DNA of 64,000 nucleotides from an uncultured Candidatus Actinomarina sp. (GTDB lineage: Bacteria > Actinomycetota > Acidimicrobiia > Actinomarinales > Actinomarinaceae), in contig CACHTH010000003.1 of NCBI GenBank assembly GCA_902582695.1, positions 16,273 to 80,272 on the forward strand. Reading direction: 5' to 3'. The first letter of the stretch is position 1, and each line of letters begins with the position of its first letter. Below the pieces are notes generated by a model. It saw nothing but the letters and a program-made list of their open reading frames with translations. It had not been told where the DNA came from and made no database searches. Positions 45,810-51,130 of the stretch are shown in pieces. The position numbers and the translations under genes are program-made.

Positions 45810-47003
45810 CTATTTAATTAAATTTAATAGATCCCATATACAGTTATTTACTGCTCTATTTATTATATCTTCCCTATTACCGCGTAAATTGTGTGTGAAA
45901 TTAGATATTTCACCATTGATACAGATGGATATAAATATTTCACCTATTTTATATTTACTTGATGGAACGGGGCCTGCTTCACCTAATACTGCTAAACCGA
46001 CAGAAGAATTATATTTTTTCATAGATGCAACTGCTAACTCTTCAGTGAGTAGGGCCCAGTCTTCATTAGGTTCTACATTCAATAGTTCTTTTTTTGCATC
46101 CATAGAATACAAAACATTAGATGCAATTAATGCTTCGCTTGCACCTGGATGAGACACAAGCTCTTTAGAAAATGATCCACCTGTAATGCTCTCTACTAGT
46201 GATATTGTATAATTCTTAGCTTTTAGTTCTCTTAATAAAACTTTTGAAGCAGGGATATTTTCATAACTTAATACATTGTGACTTAATGATTCTTTTATTT
46301 GATTTTTAAAATCTTTTAACGCATCTTCACTGACCGAATTTTTATCGATTCGTAATTTAATGATTCCTTTGCTCGCTAAATAAGCGATATCTAAACCTTC
46401 AGGTTTAAACCTGTCAATTTTTTCTGCCAAAGCAGACTCTGCTTCGTTAAAAAATAAAATAAATTCATAATCTTTTTCTATTTTTGTAAAGTTATCTTTT
46501 AAAAATGGTACTAACTCATCTGTTACTAGCGGTATGAACTCTCTCGGTGGACCAGGAAGTATGAAAACATGTTTACTTTTATATTCAATATATATCCCTG
46601 GTGAGGTTCCGTTTGTATTGTTTAATTTAGTTGCACCTGCTGGGATTTCTGCTTGTTTTACATTTGTTGCAGGCATAGTCATACCTCTACTCTCCCACCT
46701 TGACTTCATCCAGTTCAGATGAACTTCGTCAACAACAAGTTTTAAGTCAAACATTTCAGAAATGACTTCTTTTGTAAAATCATCTTCTGTAGGCCCGATT
46801 CCTCCACATGTAATAATGACATCATTGTTCTCAAGTAGTTCATTTACAGCATCTTGTATTAATTTTTTATCATCAGGTACAGTTTTTTCAGTTGAGAGCA
46901 TAAATCCATTGTTATATAAAGCTTGTCCAAGTGATGCAAGGTTAGTATTAACAGTATCGCCAAGTAAAATCTCAGTTCCAACGCTTAAAAGTGCAATATT
47001 CAC
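45810..47003 (-). CDS. cinA: CinA (molybdopterin-binding-like domain + PncC-like domain)
   Basis: SVGTEILLG..VNTN, GGIGPTEDD.T, LPGPPRE, ESITGG. Confidence 0.92.
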   Translation of the reverse strand: MNIALLSVGTEILLGDTVNTNLASLGQALYNNGFMLSTEKTVPDDKKLIQDAVNELLENNDVIITCGGIGPTEDDFTKEVISEMFDLKLVVDEVHLNWMKSRWESRGMTMPATNVKQAEIPAGATKLNNTNGTSPGIYIEYKSKHVFILPGPPREFIPLVTDELVPFLKDNFTKIEKDYEFILFFNEAESALAEKIDRFKPEGLDIAYLASKGIIKLRIDKNSVSEDALKDFKNQIKESLSHNVLSYENIPASKVLLRELKAKNYTISLVESITGGSFSKELVSHPGASEALIASNVLYSMDAKKELLNVEPNEDWALLTEELAVASMKKYNSSVGLAVLGEAGPVPSSKYKIGEIFISICINGEISNFTHNLRGNREDIINRAVNNCIWDLLNLIK

Positions 47004-47050
47004 ATATTTAGGATAGCAAGGTTATTCACCAATAAGATTATCATTAAGTT

Positions 47051-47533
47051 ATGAAACGTTTCTTGCCAATATTTATCATATTTTTTATTTCCTGTTCGTA
47101 TGGAGCCAGTGGAGAGTTGGAAAGTGAAATACTAGAAGCTGTGTCAGAATCTACAGGTTCTATTACAGAAAGTACTTTTAAGTATATAGATACATCTGAA
47201 GCTGTTGTCACTGAGAATTTTACAGATAAAAAAACAATCATCATTTTCTGGGCTGACTACTGAGGCGTATGTAGGCGGGAGTTACCTGTCGTAGAAAAAG
47301 AATTAGCTAACATTTCTGATGAGTATGATGTTATCGCTTTAGCACACAGTCAGTACGAACCAACAATGGAATGGGTGAATGAGAATCTTAATGGAGACCT
47401 CACAATAGGATTTTCTACACCTGAGTTAAGAGACTACTTTAAGATTGTTGGTCAACCAATTTCAATTGTGCTTGACACCAATGGTGAAATAATTTCTCGT
47501 ACTTATGGTGAAATTGATTTAACAAATTTTTAA
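47051..47533 (+). CDS. TlpA/ResA-like thioredoxin-fold lipoprotein with in-frame TGA (putative selenocysteine, UxxC)
   Basis: FWADY-TGA(47261)-GVCRRELP...IVGQPISIVLDTNGEI, frame open to TAA 47533; lipobox-like Cys15. Confidence 0.85.
47270..47293 (+). promoter_or_regulatory. Candidate bacterial SECIS hairpin
   Basis: GGCGGG-AGTTA-CCTGTC stem-loop starting about 10 nt after the TGA; locally GC-rich. Confidence 0.5.
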
Positions 47534-47595
47534 CTTAAAACAATGTTCTAAAGTTACAAACAAGTATGATGAGCTTATAAGCTAGCGGAGGAAGA

Positions 47596-48732
47596 ATGAC
47601 TAAAAAATCATTTCTTATTTTACTTGTTTTATCATTAGTTCTTGCTGCCTGTGGGGGTAGTGCTGATGAAGAGACAGTAGAAGAACCTGTTGCTGTGGAA
47701 GAAGCCGAAACGCTAGATGCACCAGCTACAACTGTAGCTGAGACATTAGATAAAATTACTTTTGGTTTCGTTCCAAGCGCAGAACAAGCTGAACTATTAG
47801 ACAATATTCAACCTTTAATGAAAGTATTGAGTGATGGTTTAGGTATTGAAGTAGAAGGTTTCGTAACAAGTGACTATTCAGGATTACTTGTAGCTATGGG
47901 ATCTGGTCAAGCAGATATTGGTGCATTCAACACTTTAGGATATGTTAATGCTCTCAATGCTTTTCCAACCAGGCTCGAGGCTATTGCAAAAGTTGTTAGA
48001 TATGGATCTGGTTCATATCATGGAACTTTTTGGACAACTGATTCAAGTGTTTGTAAATCAGCACCTGTAATTGGGGCATTTGAAAATATTGATGGTGTTC
48101 CTACATTAATTACTGGTTCAGCAACAATGCCACCAGATGTAAAAGCTTTACAAGTAGGTTGGGGCTTTGGCGATGATGGTATGATTCCTGAAGTCAGAAC
48201 AATTGATGGAGTAGAAGTAACTGTTAGTCCGGGATATGCATGTGAAGCTGATTTAAGTGTGCTCGTTGGGCAAGAAGTACTTTTTGTTGAGGAAGGTTCG
48301 ACTTCTGGATATCTCTATCCATCCTTACAGTTGAAAAATGCAGGTATTGATTACACAAGTGATATAACCCAAGTTTTTGCTGGATCTCATGATGGTGTTA
48401 TAGCTGGTCTTTATAATGGAGATGCCAAGTTTGGTGTCAGTTATGATGACGCACGAAGAACATTGAGAAAAACCAATCCTGATGTTGGTGAAAAAGTTAT
48501 TGCTATGGGCATAACAGCTGAAATACCAAATGATGTTGTAGCTGTTAGAACAGACTTACCTGAAGATATAAAAGCGCAAATATATCAAATATTAAGTGAC
48601 TATATATCTACTGATGAAGGTGCAGCAGTAATGGATGAGATTTATGGATGGACTGATATCGTTCCAGCTGTAAACTCTGAATTTGATGTAGTAAAACAAG
48701 CTGCAGAAGAATTTGGACTATACGACGAATAA
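47596..48732 (+). CDS. phnD: Phosphate/phosphite/phosphonate ABC substrate-binding lipoprotein
   Basis: LAAC lipobox, FGFVPS, DYSGL..AM, STSGYLYP, GSHD, IPND. Confidence 0.9.
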   Translation: MTKKSFLILLVLSLVLAACGGSADEETVEEPVAVEEAETLDAPATTVAETLDKITFGFVPSAEQAELLDNIQPLMKVLSDGLGIEVEGFVTSDYSGLLVAMGSGQADIGAFNTLGYVNALNAFPTRLEAIAKVVRYGSGSYHGTFWTTDSSVCKSAPVIGAFENIDGVPTLITGSATMPPDVKALQVGWGFGDDGMIPEVRTIDGVEVTVSPGYACEADLSVLVGQEVLFVEEGSTSGYLYPSLQLKNAGIDYTSDITQVFAGSHDGVIAGLYNGDAKFGVSYDDARRTLRKTNPDVGEKVIAMGITAEIPNDVVAVRTDLPEDIKAQIYQILSDYISTDEGAAVMDEIYGWTDIVPAVNSEFDVVKQAAEEFGLYDE

Positions 48733-48738
48733 TTAAAT

Positions 48739-48776
48739 AAAAACTAGGGTGGCATAAGTCACCCTAGTTTTTTTTT
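48739..48776 (+). terminator. Intra-operon stem-loop/terminator after phnD
   Basis: AAAACTAGGGTGGC-ATAA-GTCACCCTAGTTTT plus T-run. Confidence 0.8.
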
Positions 48777-48784
48777 CAAATTTT

Positions 48785-49555
48785 ATGATTGAGTTTAAAA
48801 ATATAAGTGTTACCTACCCTGGTGGTGTAAAAGCATTAAACAATGTCTCCCTTGACATAACAGAAGGAGATTTTGTAATAATTGTTGGCATGTCTGGTGC
48901 AGGTAAATCTACATTACTTAGAACTATAAATAATTTAGTTAAACCTACTGAAGGTGAAGTTATAGTCAATTCAAAAAATGTAACTAAAGCCTCCAAAAAA
49001 GAACTTAAAGAAATTAGATCCGATATTGGTATGATTTTTCAAACATTTAACTTAGTCAACAGATCTTCAGTATTAAAAAATGTACTTACGGGTAGATTGA
49101 GTCAAGTATCAACTCTTAGATCAGTTTTTGGCCTTTGGCCAAAAGAAGATAAGGAAATTGCTTTTGAATCATTAAATAAAGTAGAAATTTTAGAAAAAGC
49201 ATATGTTAGAGGGTCCAACCTATCAGGCGGTCAGCAACAACGAGTGGGCATAGCGAGAGCTCTCGCACAAAAGCCAAAAGTAATGCTCGCTGACGAACCA
49301 GTTGCTTCTTTAGACCCAATTACTTCTAGGGTAGTAATGAAATATTTAAAACAAATAAATCAAGAACTTGGAATAACAACTATTGTAAATTTACATTTCT
49401 TAGATTTAGCCAAGGAATTTGGCGAAAGACTAATAGGTCTAAAAGATGGAGAACTTGTTTACGATGGAAAAGTTGATGACGTTAGCGACCAAGATTTTGA
49501 AAATATATATGGTAGAGCAATAAAATCTTCTGATCTACTTGGAGAAGAAGATTAA
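48785..49555 (+). CDS. phnC: Phosphonate ABC transporter ATP-binding protein
   Basis: GMSGAGKST, LSGGQQQRV.IARAL.Q, LADEPVASLDP. Confidence 0.93.
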   Translation: MIEFKNISVTYPGGVKALNNVSLDITEGDFVIIVGMSGAGKSTLLRTINNLVKPTEGEVIVNSKNVTKASKKELKEIRSDIGMIFQTFNLVNRSSVLKNVLTGRLSQVSTLRSVFGLWPKEDKEIAFESLNKVEILEKAYVRGSNLSGGQQQRVGIARALAQKPKVMLADEPVASLDPITSRVVMKYLKQINQELGITTIVNLHFLDLAKEFGERLIGLKDGELVYDGKVDDVSDQDFENIYGRAIKSSDLLGEED

Positions 49556-50330
49556 AGTACCTAAGAAGCCGCTACCTTCTTTATTAACTGTTTTAGGTTA
49601 CCCTTTTGCAATTTTTTTTAGTATCTACTCTTTTTTACAAATTGGATTTAATTTAGAAGATTTTAAAAGAAATCTCGAAAATAGGAGAATTGTTACAGAT
49701 CCACTATTCAACCCTAAATGGGAGTGGGCAATTGAAAACGCTTCGCAGGCATTATTAGAAACAATTCAGATTGCAATATTAGCAAGTATACTTGGTTGCT
49801 TTATTGCGTTACCATTATCATTCTATGCCTCTAGAGCAACAAACCAAACAACTGTTTCTTATTACATATATAAATCATTTCTAAATTTTATTAGAACAAT
49901 ACCAGACTTATTTTGGGCTATGTTGTTCACCGTAGCTGTGGGAATAGGTCCATTTGCTGGTGTGTTGGCTCTGATTATGTTTTCTATGGCAATTATGGGT
50001 AAGTTATTGTCAGAAACCATAGATAGTATCGATCTAGGACCATTAGAAGCAGCAAAAGCAAGTGGCGCTAAACACAATCAAGCAGTTTTCAGTTCGGCAC
50101 TTCCTCAGATACTCCCAAACTTTACTGCTTACTTTTTATATATTTTCGAGCTTTGCATCAGGGCATCAGTTATTTTGGGATTGGTTGGAGCAGGTGGAGT
50201 TGGTAGGATAATTGAGACACAGCGTATATTTTTAAGATTTGATAGAATCACCCCTATTATTGTGCTCATACTTATTGCGGTAATAGCTATTGAACAATTT
50301 AGTGTATGGCTAAGAAGAAAAATATTATGA
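49539..50330 (+). CDS. phnE: Phosphonate ABC transporter permease
   Basis: ETIQIA, RTIPDL.WA, GKLLSE.I..ID.GP.EA, IRAS.ILG.VGAGG. Confidence 0.92.
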   Translation: MEKKIKVPKKPLPSLLTVLGYPFAIFFSIYSFLQIGFNLEDFKRNLENRRIVTDPLFNPKWEWAIENASQALLETIQIAILASILGCFIALPLSFYASRATNQTTVSYYIYKSFLNFIRTIPDLFWAMLFTVAVGIGPFAGVLALIMFSMAIMGKLLSETIDSIDLGPLEAAKASGAKHNQAVFSSALPQILPNFTAYFLYIFELCIRASVILGLVGAGGVGRIIETQRIFLRFDRITPIIVLILIAVIAIEQFSVWLRRKIL

Positions 50331-51130
50331 AAATTCCTAAACAACCATTTAATCAAAAAATTTTAAGATACATTATTACATTTCTGATAGTAATTGGTTC
50401 TATATGGTCAGCGTCTGGACTTGAAATCACACCTGAAAGATTTTTAACTGCTCCGAGTAAAGTATGGATATTAATATCTGCAATGTTTCCTTTAGATTTA
50501 TCAGAAGAGGCCTTTAGTAGAATAGTACCAAAGGTAGGTGAATCGCTTTTCATTGCATGGGCAGGTACTGTAATTGGAGCTATATTTAGTTTTCCTGTAT
50601 CATTTTTAGCTGCTAATAACGTTGCGTTAAATATGGTTAGTAGAGTTACTAAACAAATTTTAAATATTATCAGGGCATTTCCAGAATTAATTCTTGCTTT
50701 TGTGTTTTTACCTATAACTGGTTTAGGACCTTTAACAGGTACCCTTGCAGTAGGTATACATTCAATAGGTACCTTAGGAAAACTCTCATCTGAAGTGATA
50801 GAGGGAATAGACGAGGGTCCTTTAGAGTCGATAAAATCATCTGGTGGATCTAAATTAAGTGAGCTGTTATTTGGTGTTGTACCTCAAGTAATGCCCACAA
50901 TTACTTCTTACTGGCTGTACAGATTTGAGATTAATTTAAGAGCTTCAGCTGTTTTAGGTGTAGTTGGTGCTGGTGGGGTTGGTGCAGAACTTATTAATCA
51001 ATTAAGATTTAGAGATTTTCCACGTGCTGGCACAGTTTTAGTTGTGACTATATTAATGGTCCTAATAGTAGATACAATTTCAGCTGCAATTAGGAGACGG
51101 ATTATAAAAGGTAGAGAAATTAAGGTTTAA
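50327..51130 (+). CDS. phnE: Phosphonate ABC transporter permease (second copy)
   Basis: RAFPEL, GKLSSE.IEGID.GP.E, YRFEINLRASAVLGVVGAGG; start at ATGA overlap. Confidence 0.92.
   Translation: MKIPKQPFNQKILRYIITFLIVIGSIWSASGLEITPERFLTAPSKVWILISAMFPLDLSEEAFSRIVPKVGESLFIAWAGTVIGAIFSFPVSFLAANNVALNMVSRVTKQILNIIRAFPELILAFVFLPITGLGPLTGTLAVGIHSIGTLGKLSSEVIEGIDEGPLESIKSSGGSKLSELLFGVVPQVMPTITSYWLYRFEINLRASAVLGVVGAGGVGAELINQLRFRDFPRAGTVLVVTILMVLIVDTISAAIRRRIIKGREIKV

What the first reader, a model, noticed from the sequence alone, without database searches (positions are those of the whole stretch)
47051..47533. Hidden selenoprotein: TlpA-like lipoprotein with UxxC and a SECIS-like hairpin
Seen: the 70-aa ORF stops at TGA 47261, exactly where the first Cys of the TlpA motif FWAxWCxxC should be. 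Reading through gives FWADY-U-GVC-RRELP and an open frame to TAA 47533 (160 aa), including the cis-Pro loop (VGQP, then IVLDTNG). Just downstream is a GC-rich hairpin, GGCGGG-AGUUA-CCUGUC, using codons (AGG CGG GAG) that look unusual for this AT-rich DNA. Other genes here use TGA as a normal stop and TGG for Trp, so the code is not globally reassigned. Known: UxxC thioredoxin-fold selenoproteins occur in marine bacteria and need a SECIS 3' of the UGA. Inference: a streamlined actinobacterium exports a Sec-containing redox lipoprotein that pipelines would split or call a pseudogene.
Basis: partly seen in the sequence, partly recalled or inferred. Interest (0 to 1): 0.88.

Follow-up and report, generated by a model that had tools for sequence, protein, structure and literature searches.

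The report
Selenocysteine redox lipoprotein gene in Actinomarina
A small exported redox protein of the tiny marine bacterium Actinomarina is written with an in-frame TGA that almost certainly encodes selenocysteine, so gene finders split or mistranslate it; this kind of selenoprotein is already catalogued.

Summary
Window 47051-47533 (+) is one 160-codon gene. It encodes a lipoprotein signal peptide followed by a TlpA/ResA-like thioredoxin fold, with TGA at codon 71 in the motif FWADY-U-GV-C.

- **TGA conserved:** 55 of 64 genomes of the genus hold the gene, each with exactly one in-frame TGA, and the TGA is in the same column in 30 of 30 aligned orthologs.
- **Cys alternation:** The one sister-genus genome has Cys there, and no selA or selD was found in it.
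- **Hairpin:** The 6-bp hairpin with an AGUUR loop after the TGA pairs in 30 of 30 orthologs, shows a C-G to G-C swap, and is held on rare codons.
- **Selection:** The frame after the TGA is under purifying selection.
- **Sec machinery:** The genome has selA, a Sec-type selD and a truncated selB. tRNA-Sec is missing from this 71%-complete assembly but is present in 9 of 10 congeners tested.
- **Genetic code:** TGA is otherwise an ordinary stop.

The organism is Candidatus Actinomarina. A 2026 preprint already reports its Sec machinery and about 5 predicted selenoproteins per genome, without naming this family or finding a SECIS. TlpA-like UxxC selenoproteins have been listed since 2005. Verdict: a real selenoprotein, a new member of a known kind, with unknown clients.

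The parts
47051..47533 (+). Complete selenoprotein gene: 160 codons plus the TAA stop, read through TGA 47261
   Evidence: Pfam Redoxin 28.1 bits against a cut-off of 26.6. Orthologs with one TGA in 55 of 64 genus genomes.
47051..47095 (+). Signal peptide ending in the lipobox-like F-I-S-C, with Cys15 at 47093-47095
   Evidence: A Cys follows the hydrophobic stretch in 30 of 30 orthologs. Lgt is over its cut-off in 2 of 3 genomes and LspA in 3 of 3. The lipobox was read by eye; no dedicated predictor was run.
47261..47263 (+). TGA = Sec71, the first position of the UxxC redox motif
   Evidence: Same column in 30 of 30 orthologs. It aligns with the first Cys of WCxxC in solved relatives. Cys occupies this position in the sister genus. 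No variant is listed here in 4 sequencing runs.
47270..47272 (+). TGT = Cys74, the resolving cysteine
   Evidence: Invariant across the 58-sequence alignment A2.
47274..47290 (+). SECIS-like hairpin: 5' arm 47274-47279, loop AGUUA 47280-47284, 3' arm 47285-47290. The loop starts 19 nt after the U of UGA.
   Evidence: All 6 pairs are kept in 30 of 30 orthologs, with a C-G to G-C swap in 11 sequences. Rare codons are frozen here.
47456..47458 (+). CCA = Pro136, the thioredoxin-fold cis-Pro position
   Evidence: Invariant in alignment A2. It lies in the confidently modelled fold.

Best explanation
This is one gene for a 160-residue selenoprotein of Candidatus Actinomarina.

- Shown (from comparison of sequences): the TGA at codon 71 is conserved, a Cys occupies the same site in relatives, and a conserved hairpin lies directly after the TGA.
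- Inferred from established bacterial Sec decoding: SelB carrying Sec-tRNA(Sec) binds that 6-bp hairpin with its AGUUR pentaloop and inserts selenocysteine at the UGA.
- Shown: the N-terminus is a signal peptide with a conserved Cys, and the rest is a TlpA/ResA/Etrx-like thioredoxin fold with U71-x-x-C74, Glu77 and Pro136.
- Inferred: after export and lipidation at Cys15 the protein sits on the outer face of the cell membrane.
- Inferred: U71 is the attacking nucleophile on an oxidised client, C74 resolves the mixed selenenyl-sulfide, and CcdA, which these genomes encode, re-reduces the protein with electrons from the cytoplasm.

It is not the cytochrome c maturation thioredoxin. The ccm operon has its own Cys-type DsbE-like gene. 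My most likely reading of its role is a high-reactivity surface reductase for repair of oxidised envelope proteins in a sunlit-ocean bacterium. The clients are unknown.
For: TGA conservation
- 32 of 37 genus genomes and 55 of 64 hold the gene, each with exactly one in-frame TGA, at 46-99% identity. The gene is found in 12 of 12 genomes that are at least 90% complete.
- The TGA is in the same column in 30 of 30 fetched orthologs, with no other stop or frameshift.

Cys/Sec alternation
- The sister-genus genome G088 reads FWADY-C-PTC. Neither selA nor selD was found in it.
- P0124 and P0125 also carry Cys.

Selection
- Median dN/dS is 0.25 downstream of the TGA (407 of 435 pairs used) against 0.43 upstream (369 of 435 pairs).

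Hairpin
- 6 pairs have 0 breaks in 30 sequences, with C-G to G-C in 11 sequences.
- 93.2% of cells are paired against 42.9-62.1% for slid partners, and 0 of 500 shuffles reach the observed covariation score.
- Rare codons are fixed inside the hairpin: CGG in 13 of 13 Arg, GAG in 30 of 30, GTC in 17 of 19 Val, CTC in 11 of 11 Leu. Flanking codons vary.

Machinery
- selA, selD (itself with TGA) and selB-like genes are present.
- tRNA-Sec scores 72.6-75.8 bits in 5 of 5 congeners and is found in 4 of 5 closest relatives. ARAGORN calls tRNA-SeC (tca) in 5 of 5.

Genetic code
- TGA ends 114 of 519 long ORFs.

Fold
- AlphaFold2 mean pLDDT is 83.6, with 10-residue block means of 84-98 over residues 41-160, and U71 lies just before helix 72-88.
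- Top Foldseek matches are ResA, Etrx1/2, DsbF, StoA, TlpA and CcmG, with E-values from 5e-9 to 2e-7.
- U71 aligns with the first Cys of WCxxC in 3ia1 and 4hqz.

Partners
- CcdA is present in 3 of 3 genomes.
- The ccm operon has its own DsbE-like protein (85.8 bits).

Field data
- Contigs from 3 metatranscriptome studies and 1 metagenome bridge the TGA. No variant is listed at the TGA, and variants are listed at 47257 and 47266.
Against: - tRNA-Sec was not found in this genome. The assembly is 71% complete.
- selB is cut by the contig end and scores 171 bits against a cut-off of 242.
- On the single sequence the hairpin is not exceptional (z = 0.77).
- The signature 'TGA + stem + NGUUN loop in an open frame' is not specific genome-wide: 4 hits against 0-10 for control loop motifs.
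- The C-G to G-C swap sits in sequences that all share Glu at +5 and Leu at +9, so it may be a single event. Independent covariation events are few.
- dS is near saturation (medians 1.1-1.3), so dN/dS values are rough.
- No Rfam model matches the region.
- All NCBIfam models score far below their cut-offs.
- Contigs found in RNA libraries do not prove transcription.
- There is no protein-level evidence.
- The function is inferred from the fold alone. No conserved neighbour suggests a client. MsrA was found in 1 of 3 genomes and Sco in 0 of 3.
Confidence: 0.88

Rival explanations
1. The TGA is a nonsense mutation, a sequencing error or a decaying pseudogene. Only the 70-aa N-terminal peptide is made, or nothing at all.
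For: Under table 11 the ORF ends at 47263. Public databases hold matching fragments of 65 and 83 aa.
Against: - The TGA is kept in all 55 genus genomes that hold the gene, across 46-99% identity.
- The downstream frame is intact in 30 of 30 orthologs, with dN/dS 0.25.
- The thioredoxin fold is complete only across the TGA.
- The TGA is unchanged in contigs of 4 independent runs.
Confidence: 0.01
2. The TGA is read as Trp, or as another standard residue such as Cys, by reassignment or leaky suppression rather than as selenocysteine.
For: All 120 full-length database homologs that I saw carry W at position 71 (119 by pattern, plus P0036 by eye). These were the best 120 of 367 hits.
Against: - W is what a gene caller set to TGA=Trp would print on short AT-rich contigs.
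- TGA ends 114 of 519 long ORFs here, with a median read-through of 6 codons, and TGG is used 2077 times.
- The site is the nucleophilic Cys of the CxxC motif in every relative. Trp there would abolish redox chemistry.
- A conserved hairpin and full Sec machinery in the genus have no role under this reading.
Confidence: 0.03
3. It is a real selenoprotein, but it works as the cytochrome c maturation reductase (ResA/CcmG role) or the CuA/Sco reductase (TlpA role), not as a general surface reductase.
For: - The best fold matches include ResA, CcmG and TlpA.
- A Glu lies three residues after the second Cys; from memory, ResA has a Glu at the same spacing.
- System I ccm genes are present.
Against: - The ccm operon carries its own Cys-type DsbE-like gene (TIGR00385, 85.8 bits).
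- The Sec gene lies elsewhere, between cinA and phnD, in 29 of 29 and 14 of 14 genus loci.
- Sco was not found in 0 of 3 genomes and ResB in 0 of 3.
Confidence: 0.15

Closest known systems
'Thiol-disulfide isomerase-like protein' selenoprotein family of the Sargasso Sea selenoproteome. Listed in the tables of PMC1088965 (Genome Biol 2005) and again in the 2026 review PMC13188914 as cd02966, UxxC.
   Same: It has a UxxC motif, a TlpA-like domain assignment and a surface-ocean origin (passages and tables seen by text search).
   Different: I could not compare sequences. Identity with that family is likely but untested. In the passages I saw, those papers give no lineage, no lipoprotein reading and no Actinomarina link ('Actinomarina' occurs 0 times in the review).
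[quoted passage not shown]
   Same: It is a TlpA/ResA-like fold with Sec placed after W-A-x-x.
   Different: This protein scores 22.2 bits against a cut-off of 300. The model has 354 positions against 160 residues here. The motif here is U-G-V-C (UxxC), not UGC. It is not a member.
ResA (Bacillus subtilis) and CcmG/DsbE
   Same: Same fold (target-normalised TM-score 0.66-0.74). The redox motif lies at the helix N-terminus, a Glu lies three residues after the second Cys, and the cis-Pro position is conserved.
   Different: This protein has Sec instead of the first Cys. It scores below the ResA and DsbE model cut-offs (32.1 against 170; 23 against 123). It is not in the ccm operon, which has its own DsbE-like gene.
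Etrx1/Etrx2, surface-exposed thioredoxin lipoproteins of Streptococcus pneumoniae (PDB 4hqs, 4hqz, 2yp6)
   Same: They are lipoprotein-anchored extracytoplasmic thioredoxin folds and rank among the best sequence and fold matches. From memory, they depend on CcdA and supply a surface methionine sulfoxide reductase.
   Different: This protein has Sec at the active site. A matching exported Msr partner was not found: MsrA is in 1 of 3 genomes, and MsrB is in 3 of 3 as short ORFs of 124-136 aa.
The Actinomarina selenoproteome reported in the preprint 'Actinomarina, resolved' (bioRxiv 10.64898/2026.04.03.716425)
   Same: It concerns the same genus. It reports selA, selC and selD in all 84 genomes, a divergent selB, a Sec-form selD, and about 5 deep-Sep-predicted selenoproteins per genome (passages).
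   Different: Its main text has 0 occurrences of thioredoxin, redoxin, disulfide, lipoprotein, TlpA or AhpC. Its SECIS search with 4 Rfam models gave only 6 hits, none significant. This family may be in its supplementary tables, which I could not see.

Membership tests
Bacterial selenoprotein gene (Sec-decoded UGA) | In-frame UGA conserved among orthologs, with an intact and constrained frame downstream | tested here: met
   55 of 55 gene-bearing genus genomes have one TGA. The TGA is in the same column in 30 of 30 orthologs, and dN/dS is 0.25 downstream.
Bacterial selenoprotein gene (Sec-decoded UGA) | Cys in homologs at the aligned position | tested here: met
   G088 reads FWADY-C-PTC. P0124 and P0125 also have Cys. 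Solved relatives have WCxxC at the aligned site.
Bacterial selenoprotein gene (Sec-decoded UGA) | Stem-loop directly 3' of the UGA, with a G early in the apical loop, at the bacterial SECIS spacing. The rule I used (16-37 nt from UGA to loop) is recalled from the bSECISearch model. | tested here: met
   A 6-bp stem with an AGUUR loop starts 19 nt after the U. It is kept in 30 of 30 orthologs with a compensatory change. bSECISearch itself was not available.
Bacterial selenoprotein gene (Sec-decoded UGA) | selA, selB, selC and selD in the same genome | tested here: inconclusive
   selA and selD are over their cut-offs, and selB is truncated at a contig end. selC was not found in G000, which is 71% complete, but is found in 9 of 10 congeners tested.
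Bacterial selenoprotein gene (Sec-decoded UGA) | Selenium shown in the protein | not testable with these tools
   This needs 75Se labelling or mass spectrometry.
TlpA/ResA/DsbE-like extracytoplasmic thioredoxin fold (Pfam Redoxin / AhpC-TSA) | Score over the family's curated cut-off | tested here: met
   Redoxin scores 28.1 against 26.6 and Thioredoxin 23.5 against 23.5. AhpC-TSA (25.3 against 26) and Thioredoxin_8 (25.7 against 27) fall just below.
TlpA/ResA/DsbE-like extracytoplasmic thioredoxin fold (Pfam Redoxin / AhpC-TSA) | Thioredoxin fold with the redox motif at the N-terminus of helix 1 and a conserved cis-Pro | tested here: met
   Block-mean pLDDT is 84-98 over residues 41-160. U71 precedes helix 72-88. 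Pro136 and Cys74 are invariant. Foldseek probability is 1.00 to ResA, Etrx, TlpA and CcmG.
NCBIfam ResA, StoA, TlpA and DsbE models (types as listed) | Score over the curated cut-off | tested here: not met
   ResA 32.1 against 170, StoA 32.6 against 210, TlpA 27.1 against 230, DsbE 23 against 123.
ResA-like WAxxUGC selenoprotein (NF041054) | Score over cut-off and the UGC motif | tested here: not met
   22.2 bits against 300. The motif here is UGVC.
Bacterial lipoprotein | Signal peptide ending in a lipobox Cys, with Lgt and LspA in the genome | tested here: met
   The Cys is conserved in 30 of 30 orthologs. Lgt is over its cut-off in 2 of 3 genomes, with a fragment at a contig end in G000. 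LspA is present in 3 of 3. The lipobox was judged by eye and acylation was not tested.
CcmG of the System I cytochrome c maturation operon | Encoded within the ccm gene cluster | tested here: not met
   The ccm cluster on G000:C1 has its own 162-aa DsbE-like gene. The Sec gene lies on C3 between cinA and phnD.

The most novel reading that the evidence does not exclude
Actinomarina uses a minimal, lineage-specific SECIS: a short stem capped by an AGUUR pentaloop, read by its divergent SelB. The same loop follows the UGA in two unrelated UxxC thioredoxin-fold genes. On this reading, the surface-anchored Sec lipoprotein, together with its membrane-anchored partner family, is the main reason a 1-Mb genome keeps the whole Sec pathway. 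It would act as a selenol-based front line against photochemical oxidants at the cell surface, possibly with direct peroxidase activity rather than only disulfide reduction.
Probability: 0.15. Interest if true: 0.6.

Novelty: new member of a known kind. Interest (0 to 1): 0.4.

Why it matters
Actinomarina is, according to the preprint's abstract, among the smallest free-living and most abundant surface-ocean bacteria. Which proteins justify keeping a four-gene Sec pathway in about 1 Mb is an open question that the preprint leaves mostly at 'uncharacterized'.

This analysis gives one of those targets a fold, a location and an active site. It defines the RNA hairpin that the preprint's Rfam search could not find. 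It also shows a clean Cys/Sec switch at a genus boundary.

There is a practical point too. All 120 full-length public protein entries that I saw for this family carry Trp at the catalytic site, and other entries are fragments. Homology-based annotation and structure prediction of this family start from wrong sequences.

Tried and rejected
- Single-sequence folding does not single out the hairpin (z = 0.77).
- A genome-wide scan for 'TGA + stem of at least 5 bp + NGUUN loop in an open frame' gave 4 hits against 0-10 for nine control loop motifs. The shared AGUUR loop is therefore suggestive, not a detector. The scan also missed selD, whose candidate hairpins are a CUCUCC/GGAGAG stem with a 3-nt loop, or a bulged stem that by my own reading would carry a GGUUC loop.
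- Rfam at a permissive threshold gave only 5 chance-level hits to unrelated families in 46900-47700.
- Gene neighbourhood gave no partner. cinA/recA/miaB-like genes lie on one side and phnD/C/E on the other. The genes around ccdA include no thioredoxin.
- ResB was not found in 0 of 3 genomes and Sco in 0 of 3. Completeness of the three genomes is 71, 87 and 94%.
- The Haft 2022 preprint (10.1101/2022.07.06.499078, passages) describes other selenoproteins, including a thioredoxin-like SaoT. It has 0 occurrences of WAxxUGC, ResA or TlpA, so it does not cover this family.
- Literature searches made: 'Actinomarina' + 'selenocysteine' (1 paper); selenoproteome / Sargasso Sea / thioredoxin-like / SECIS; selenoprotein / ResA / UxxC / lipoprotein.
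- I did not run a complex prediction, a protein atlas search or an RNA covariance model. None would have changed the verdict.
- In read laying, stretches without cover in single RNA runs are not evidence of anything.
Full report
**What is in the sequence**

On the + strand an ATG at 47051 opens a frame that table 11 stops at TGA 47261-47263 after 70 codons. Read through, the frame stays open to TAA 47531-47533 and gives 160 residues. The product has three parts:
- a basic and hydrophobic N-terminus ending in F-I-S-C (Cys15);
- a low-complexity linker;
- a domain with FWADY-U-GV-C-RRELP, later VGQP and IVLDTNG.

The window is G000:C3:16273-80272 of an 894-kb, 30-contig assembly that is 71% complete, with contig GC of 28-35%.

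**What kind of protein**

Sequence models:
- Pfam places it in the Redoxin / AhpC-TSA / Thioredoxin group. Redoxin scores 28.1 bits against a cut-off of 26.6.
- NCBIfam's best hits are StoA, ResA, TlpA and DsbE. All are far below their cut-offs, so it belongs to none of those models.
- By sequence, the nearest solved structures are extracytoplasmic thioredoxin-family proteins. Position 71 aligns with the first Cys of their WCxxC motif.

Structure:
- An AlphaFold2 model built from a 58-sequence alignment has mean pLDDT 83.6, with 10-residue block means of 84-98 over residues 41-160.
- U71 lies just before helix 72-88.
- Foldseek ranks ResA, the pneumococcal lipoprotein thioredoxins Etrx1/2, DsbF, StoA, TlpA and CcmG at the top, with E-values from 5e-9 to 2e-7.
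- Cys74 and Pro136 are invariant, and Glu77 and Pro79 nearly so, in the alignment.

Lipoprotein reading:
- A Cys at the end of the signal peptide is kept in 30 of 30 orthologs.
- LspA is present in 3 of 3 genomes tested. Lgt is over its cut-off in 2 of 3, with a fragment at a contig end in G000.
- The lipoprotein reading is therefore reasonable, though I judged the lipobox by eye.

**Is the TGA real and conserved**

- In a draw of relatives, 32 of 37 genomes of the same genus (G000 included) hold an ortholog at 47-99% identity, each with exactly one in-frame TGA.
- Across the whole order held in the collection (65 genomes), 55 of 64 genus genomes hold it, each with one TGA. The nine without a match are 60-87% complete. 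All 12 genomes that are at least 90% complete have it.
- In the 30 orthologs I fetched, the TGA is in the same alignment column in 30 of 30, inside an invariant FWADY-U-[GS]-x-C-R. None has another stop or a frameshift.
- Contigs of three metatranscriptome runs from three studies and one metagenome run bridge the TGA. No variant is listed at 47261-47263, and variants are listed at the third-codon positions 47257 and 47266. Contigs in RNA libraries do not prove transcription, and contigs drop rare variants.

**Cys/Sec alternation**

- The only genome of a second genus in the order, G088, has a 38%-identical homolog with no internal stop. It reads FWADY-C-PTC.
- In that genome (71% complete) selA and selD were not found. 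The best tRNA-Sec-model hit (50.2 bits) lies in a run of three tRNA-like hits resembling the tRNA-Ser cluster of G000. It scores well below the 72.6-75.8 bits of the true tRNA-Sec genes.
- An exhaustive search of 1.84 billion representatives found only 4 proteins at E of 1e-30 or better and 22 at 1e-10 or better. Among them are two Cys forms, P0124 and P0125 (FWADY-C-xTC), plus fragments covering residues 1-70 and 78-160.

**Selection**

Pairwise Nei-Gojobori estimates give a median dN/dS of 0.25 downstream of the TGA (407 of 435 pairs usable). The value is 0.25 beyond the hairpin and 0.43 upstream (369 of 435 pairs). dS medians are 1.1-1.3, near saturation, so the values are rough. The direction is clear: the part after the TGA is at least as constrained as the part before it.

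**The hairpin**

- RNAalifold on the 30 orthologs predicts the same 6 pairs, with 0 breaks in 30 sequences. Changes are G-C to G-U, G-U to A-U or G-C, and C-G to G-C in 11 sequences.
- For the 7-pair structure I named, 93.2% of cells pair, against 42.9-62.1% when partners are slid by 1-3 columns. 0 of 500 shuffles reach the observed covariation score. The outermost A-U pair holds in only 12 of 23 distinct rows.
- The C-G to G-C swap is made by amino-acid changes on both arms (Arg to Glu, Val to Leu). It occurs in sequences that look like one clade, so it may be one event.
- Synonymous sites are frozen on rare codons inside the hairpin:
  - CGG (1.0% of Arg codons genome-wide) in 13 of 13 orthologs with Arg at +5;
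  - GAG (22%) in 30 of 30;
  - GTC (9%) in 17 of 19 Val;
  - CTC (4%) in 11 of 11 Leu;
  - CCT in 29 of 30.
- Codons on either side of the hairpin vary freely.
- The loop AGUUR is invariant and starts 19 nt after the U of UGA. That is inside the 16-37 nt range I recall from the bSECISearch model, with G as the second loop base.
- On the single sequence the fold is not exceptional, and no Rfam model matches.

**Sec machinery and genetic code**

- G000 has selA (383 bits, cut-off 268).
- It has selD (374 bits), which itself carries an in-frame TGA in GSG-U-ACK.
- Directly after selA it has a selB-like gene that runs off the end of contig C6 (171 bits, cut-off 242).
- tRNA-Sec was not found in G000 by Rfam or ARAGORN.
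- tRNA-Sec is present over the cut-off in 5 of 5 better-assembled congeners, where ARAGORN also calls tRNA-SeC with anticodon tca. It is also present in 4 of 5 of the closest relatives, including the one whose ortholog is 99% identical.
- TGA is not a sense codon in general. 114 of 519 ORFs of 250 aa or more end in TGA with a median read-through of 6 codons. TGG is used 2077 times. The neighbouring genes are intact under table 11.

**Database state**

The best 120 of 367 full-length hits in the 5.8-billion-protein collection all carry W at position 71 (119 by pattern, P0036 by eye). This is what a caller set to TGA=Trp would print. None carries Cys.

**Function**

- CcdA is present in 3 of 3 genomes tested.
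- The genus uses System I cytochrome c maturation: ccmC, ccmE, ccmF and an NrfF/CcmH-like gene. That operon carries its own Cys-type DsbE-like thioredoxin (TIGR00385, 85.8 bits).
- ResB and Sco were not found in 0 of 3 genomes each.
- The Sec gene sits between cinA and a phosphonate-type ABC transporter in 29 of 29 and 14 of 14 genus loci for cinA, and in 25 of 29 and 12 of 14 for phnD. The two locus sets overlap in species. This neighbourhood does not suggest a client.
- I therefore read it as an additional, Sec-activated surface reductase recycled by CcdA, most like the Etrx type. Its clients are unknown. The ResA/TlpA-type roles are less likely but not excluded.

**Organism and prior knowledge**

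- Records of close relatives are titled Candidatus Actinomarina / OCS155.
- The preprint 'Actinomarina, resolved' (bioRxiv 10.64898/2026.04.03.716425; passages read) reports the following:
  - selC, selA and selD in 84 of 84 complete genomes, a divergent selB and a Sec-form selD;
  - about 4.9 deep-Sep-predicted selenoproteins per genome, most of them uncharacterized;
  - a search with four Rfam SECIS models that gave only 6 hits, none significant.
- Its main text never uses the words thioredoxin, redoxin, disulfide, lipoprotein, TlpA or AhpC.
- The 2005 Sargasso Sea selenoproteome (PMC1088965; passages and tables) lists a 'thiol-disulfide isomerase-like protein' family with UxxC (4 sequences).
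- I could not test whether the Sargasso family is this one (one search was switched off; figures and supplements are not held).

**Verdict**

This is a real selenoprotein gene, correctly spotted. It is a new member of a known kind, in a lineage whose Sec trait is already reported in a preprint. What is added here:
- the fold and location of one target;
- a comparative definition of its SECIS hairpin;
- the Cys form in the sister genus;
- the mistranslated database entries.

Noticed in passing
L069:501-971 (+) = G000:C9:35508-35978, outside the window: A second UxxC selenoprotein candidate. It is a 157-aa protein with N-terminal hydrophobic stretches (read by eye as membrane helices) and the motif FYSDY-U-LGC, which looks thioredoxin-like. 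No family scan or fold was run on it. It is found with exactly one TGA in 55 of 64 genus genomes. Its post-TGA hairpin AAUUCAU-AGUUR-AUGAAUU is kept in the 29 of 30 fetched loci where my pattern found the motif. It has the same AGUUR pentaloop as the target, starting 29 nt after the U.
   Followed up: partly
L009 = G000:C12:16592-20509; selD at C12:18092-19009 (-): selD itself has an in-frame TGA in GSG-U-ACK, so the Sec pathway depends on its own product. Its SECIS is unclear. One candidate is a CUCUCC/GGAGAG stem with a 3-nt loop at the same spacing as the target's hairpin. Another, by my own reading, is a bulged stem with a GGUUC loop further on.
   Followed up: partly
Database proteins P0002-P0121 (homologs of window 47051-47533): All 120 full-length public entries I saw carry Trp at the Sec site, as a TGA=Trp gene call would give. 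P0036 also has F in place of Cys74 and a C-terminus like that of another clade, perhaps from a chimeric contig.
   Followed up: yes
L102 = G000:C1:106500-113500: A System I cytochrome c maturation operon: CcmC-, CcmE-, CcmF- and NrfF/CcmH-like genes, a TPR protein and a DsbE-like gene. ResB (System II) was found in 0 of 3 genomes. As I recall, actinobacteria usually use System II, so this may be unusual for the phylum.
   Followed up: partly
G000:C6:62860-65252 (L010, L012): selA is followed 11 nt later by a selB-like gene that runs off the contig end after 374 codons. In 5 congeners, tRNA-Sec is not within 1.5 kb of selA or selB.
   Followed up: yes
window 47596-51130 (+): A phosphonate-type ABC transporter lies 62 nt downstream of the selenoprotein gene on the same strand: a lipoprotein-like PhnD binding protein, an ATPase and two permeases. 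It is conserved there in most genus loci. Co-transcription was not tested.
   Followed up: no
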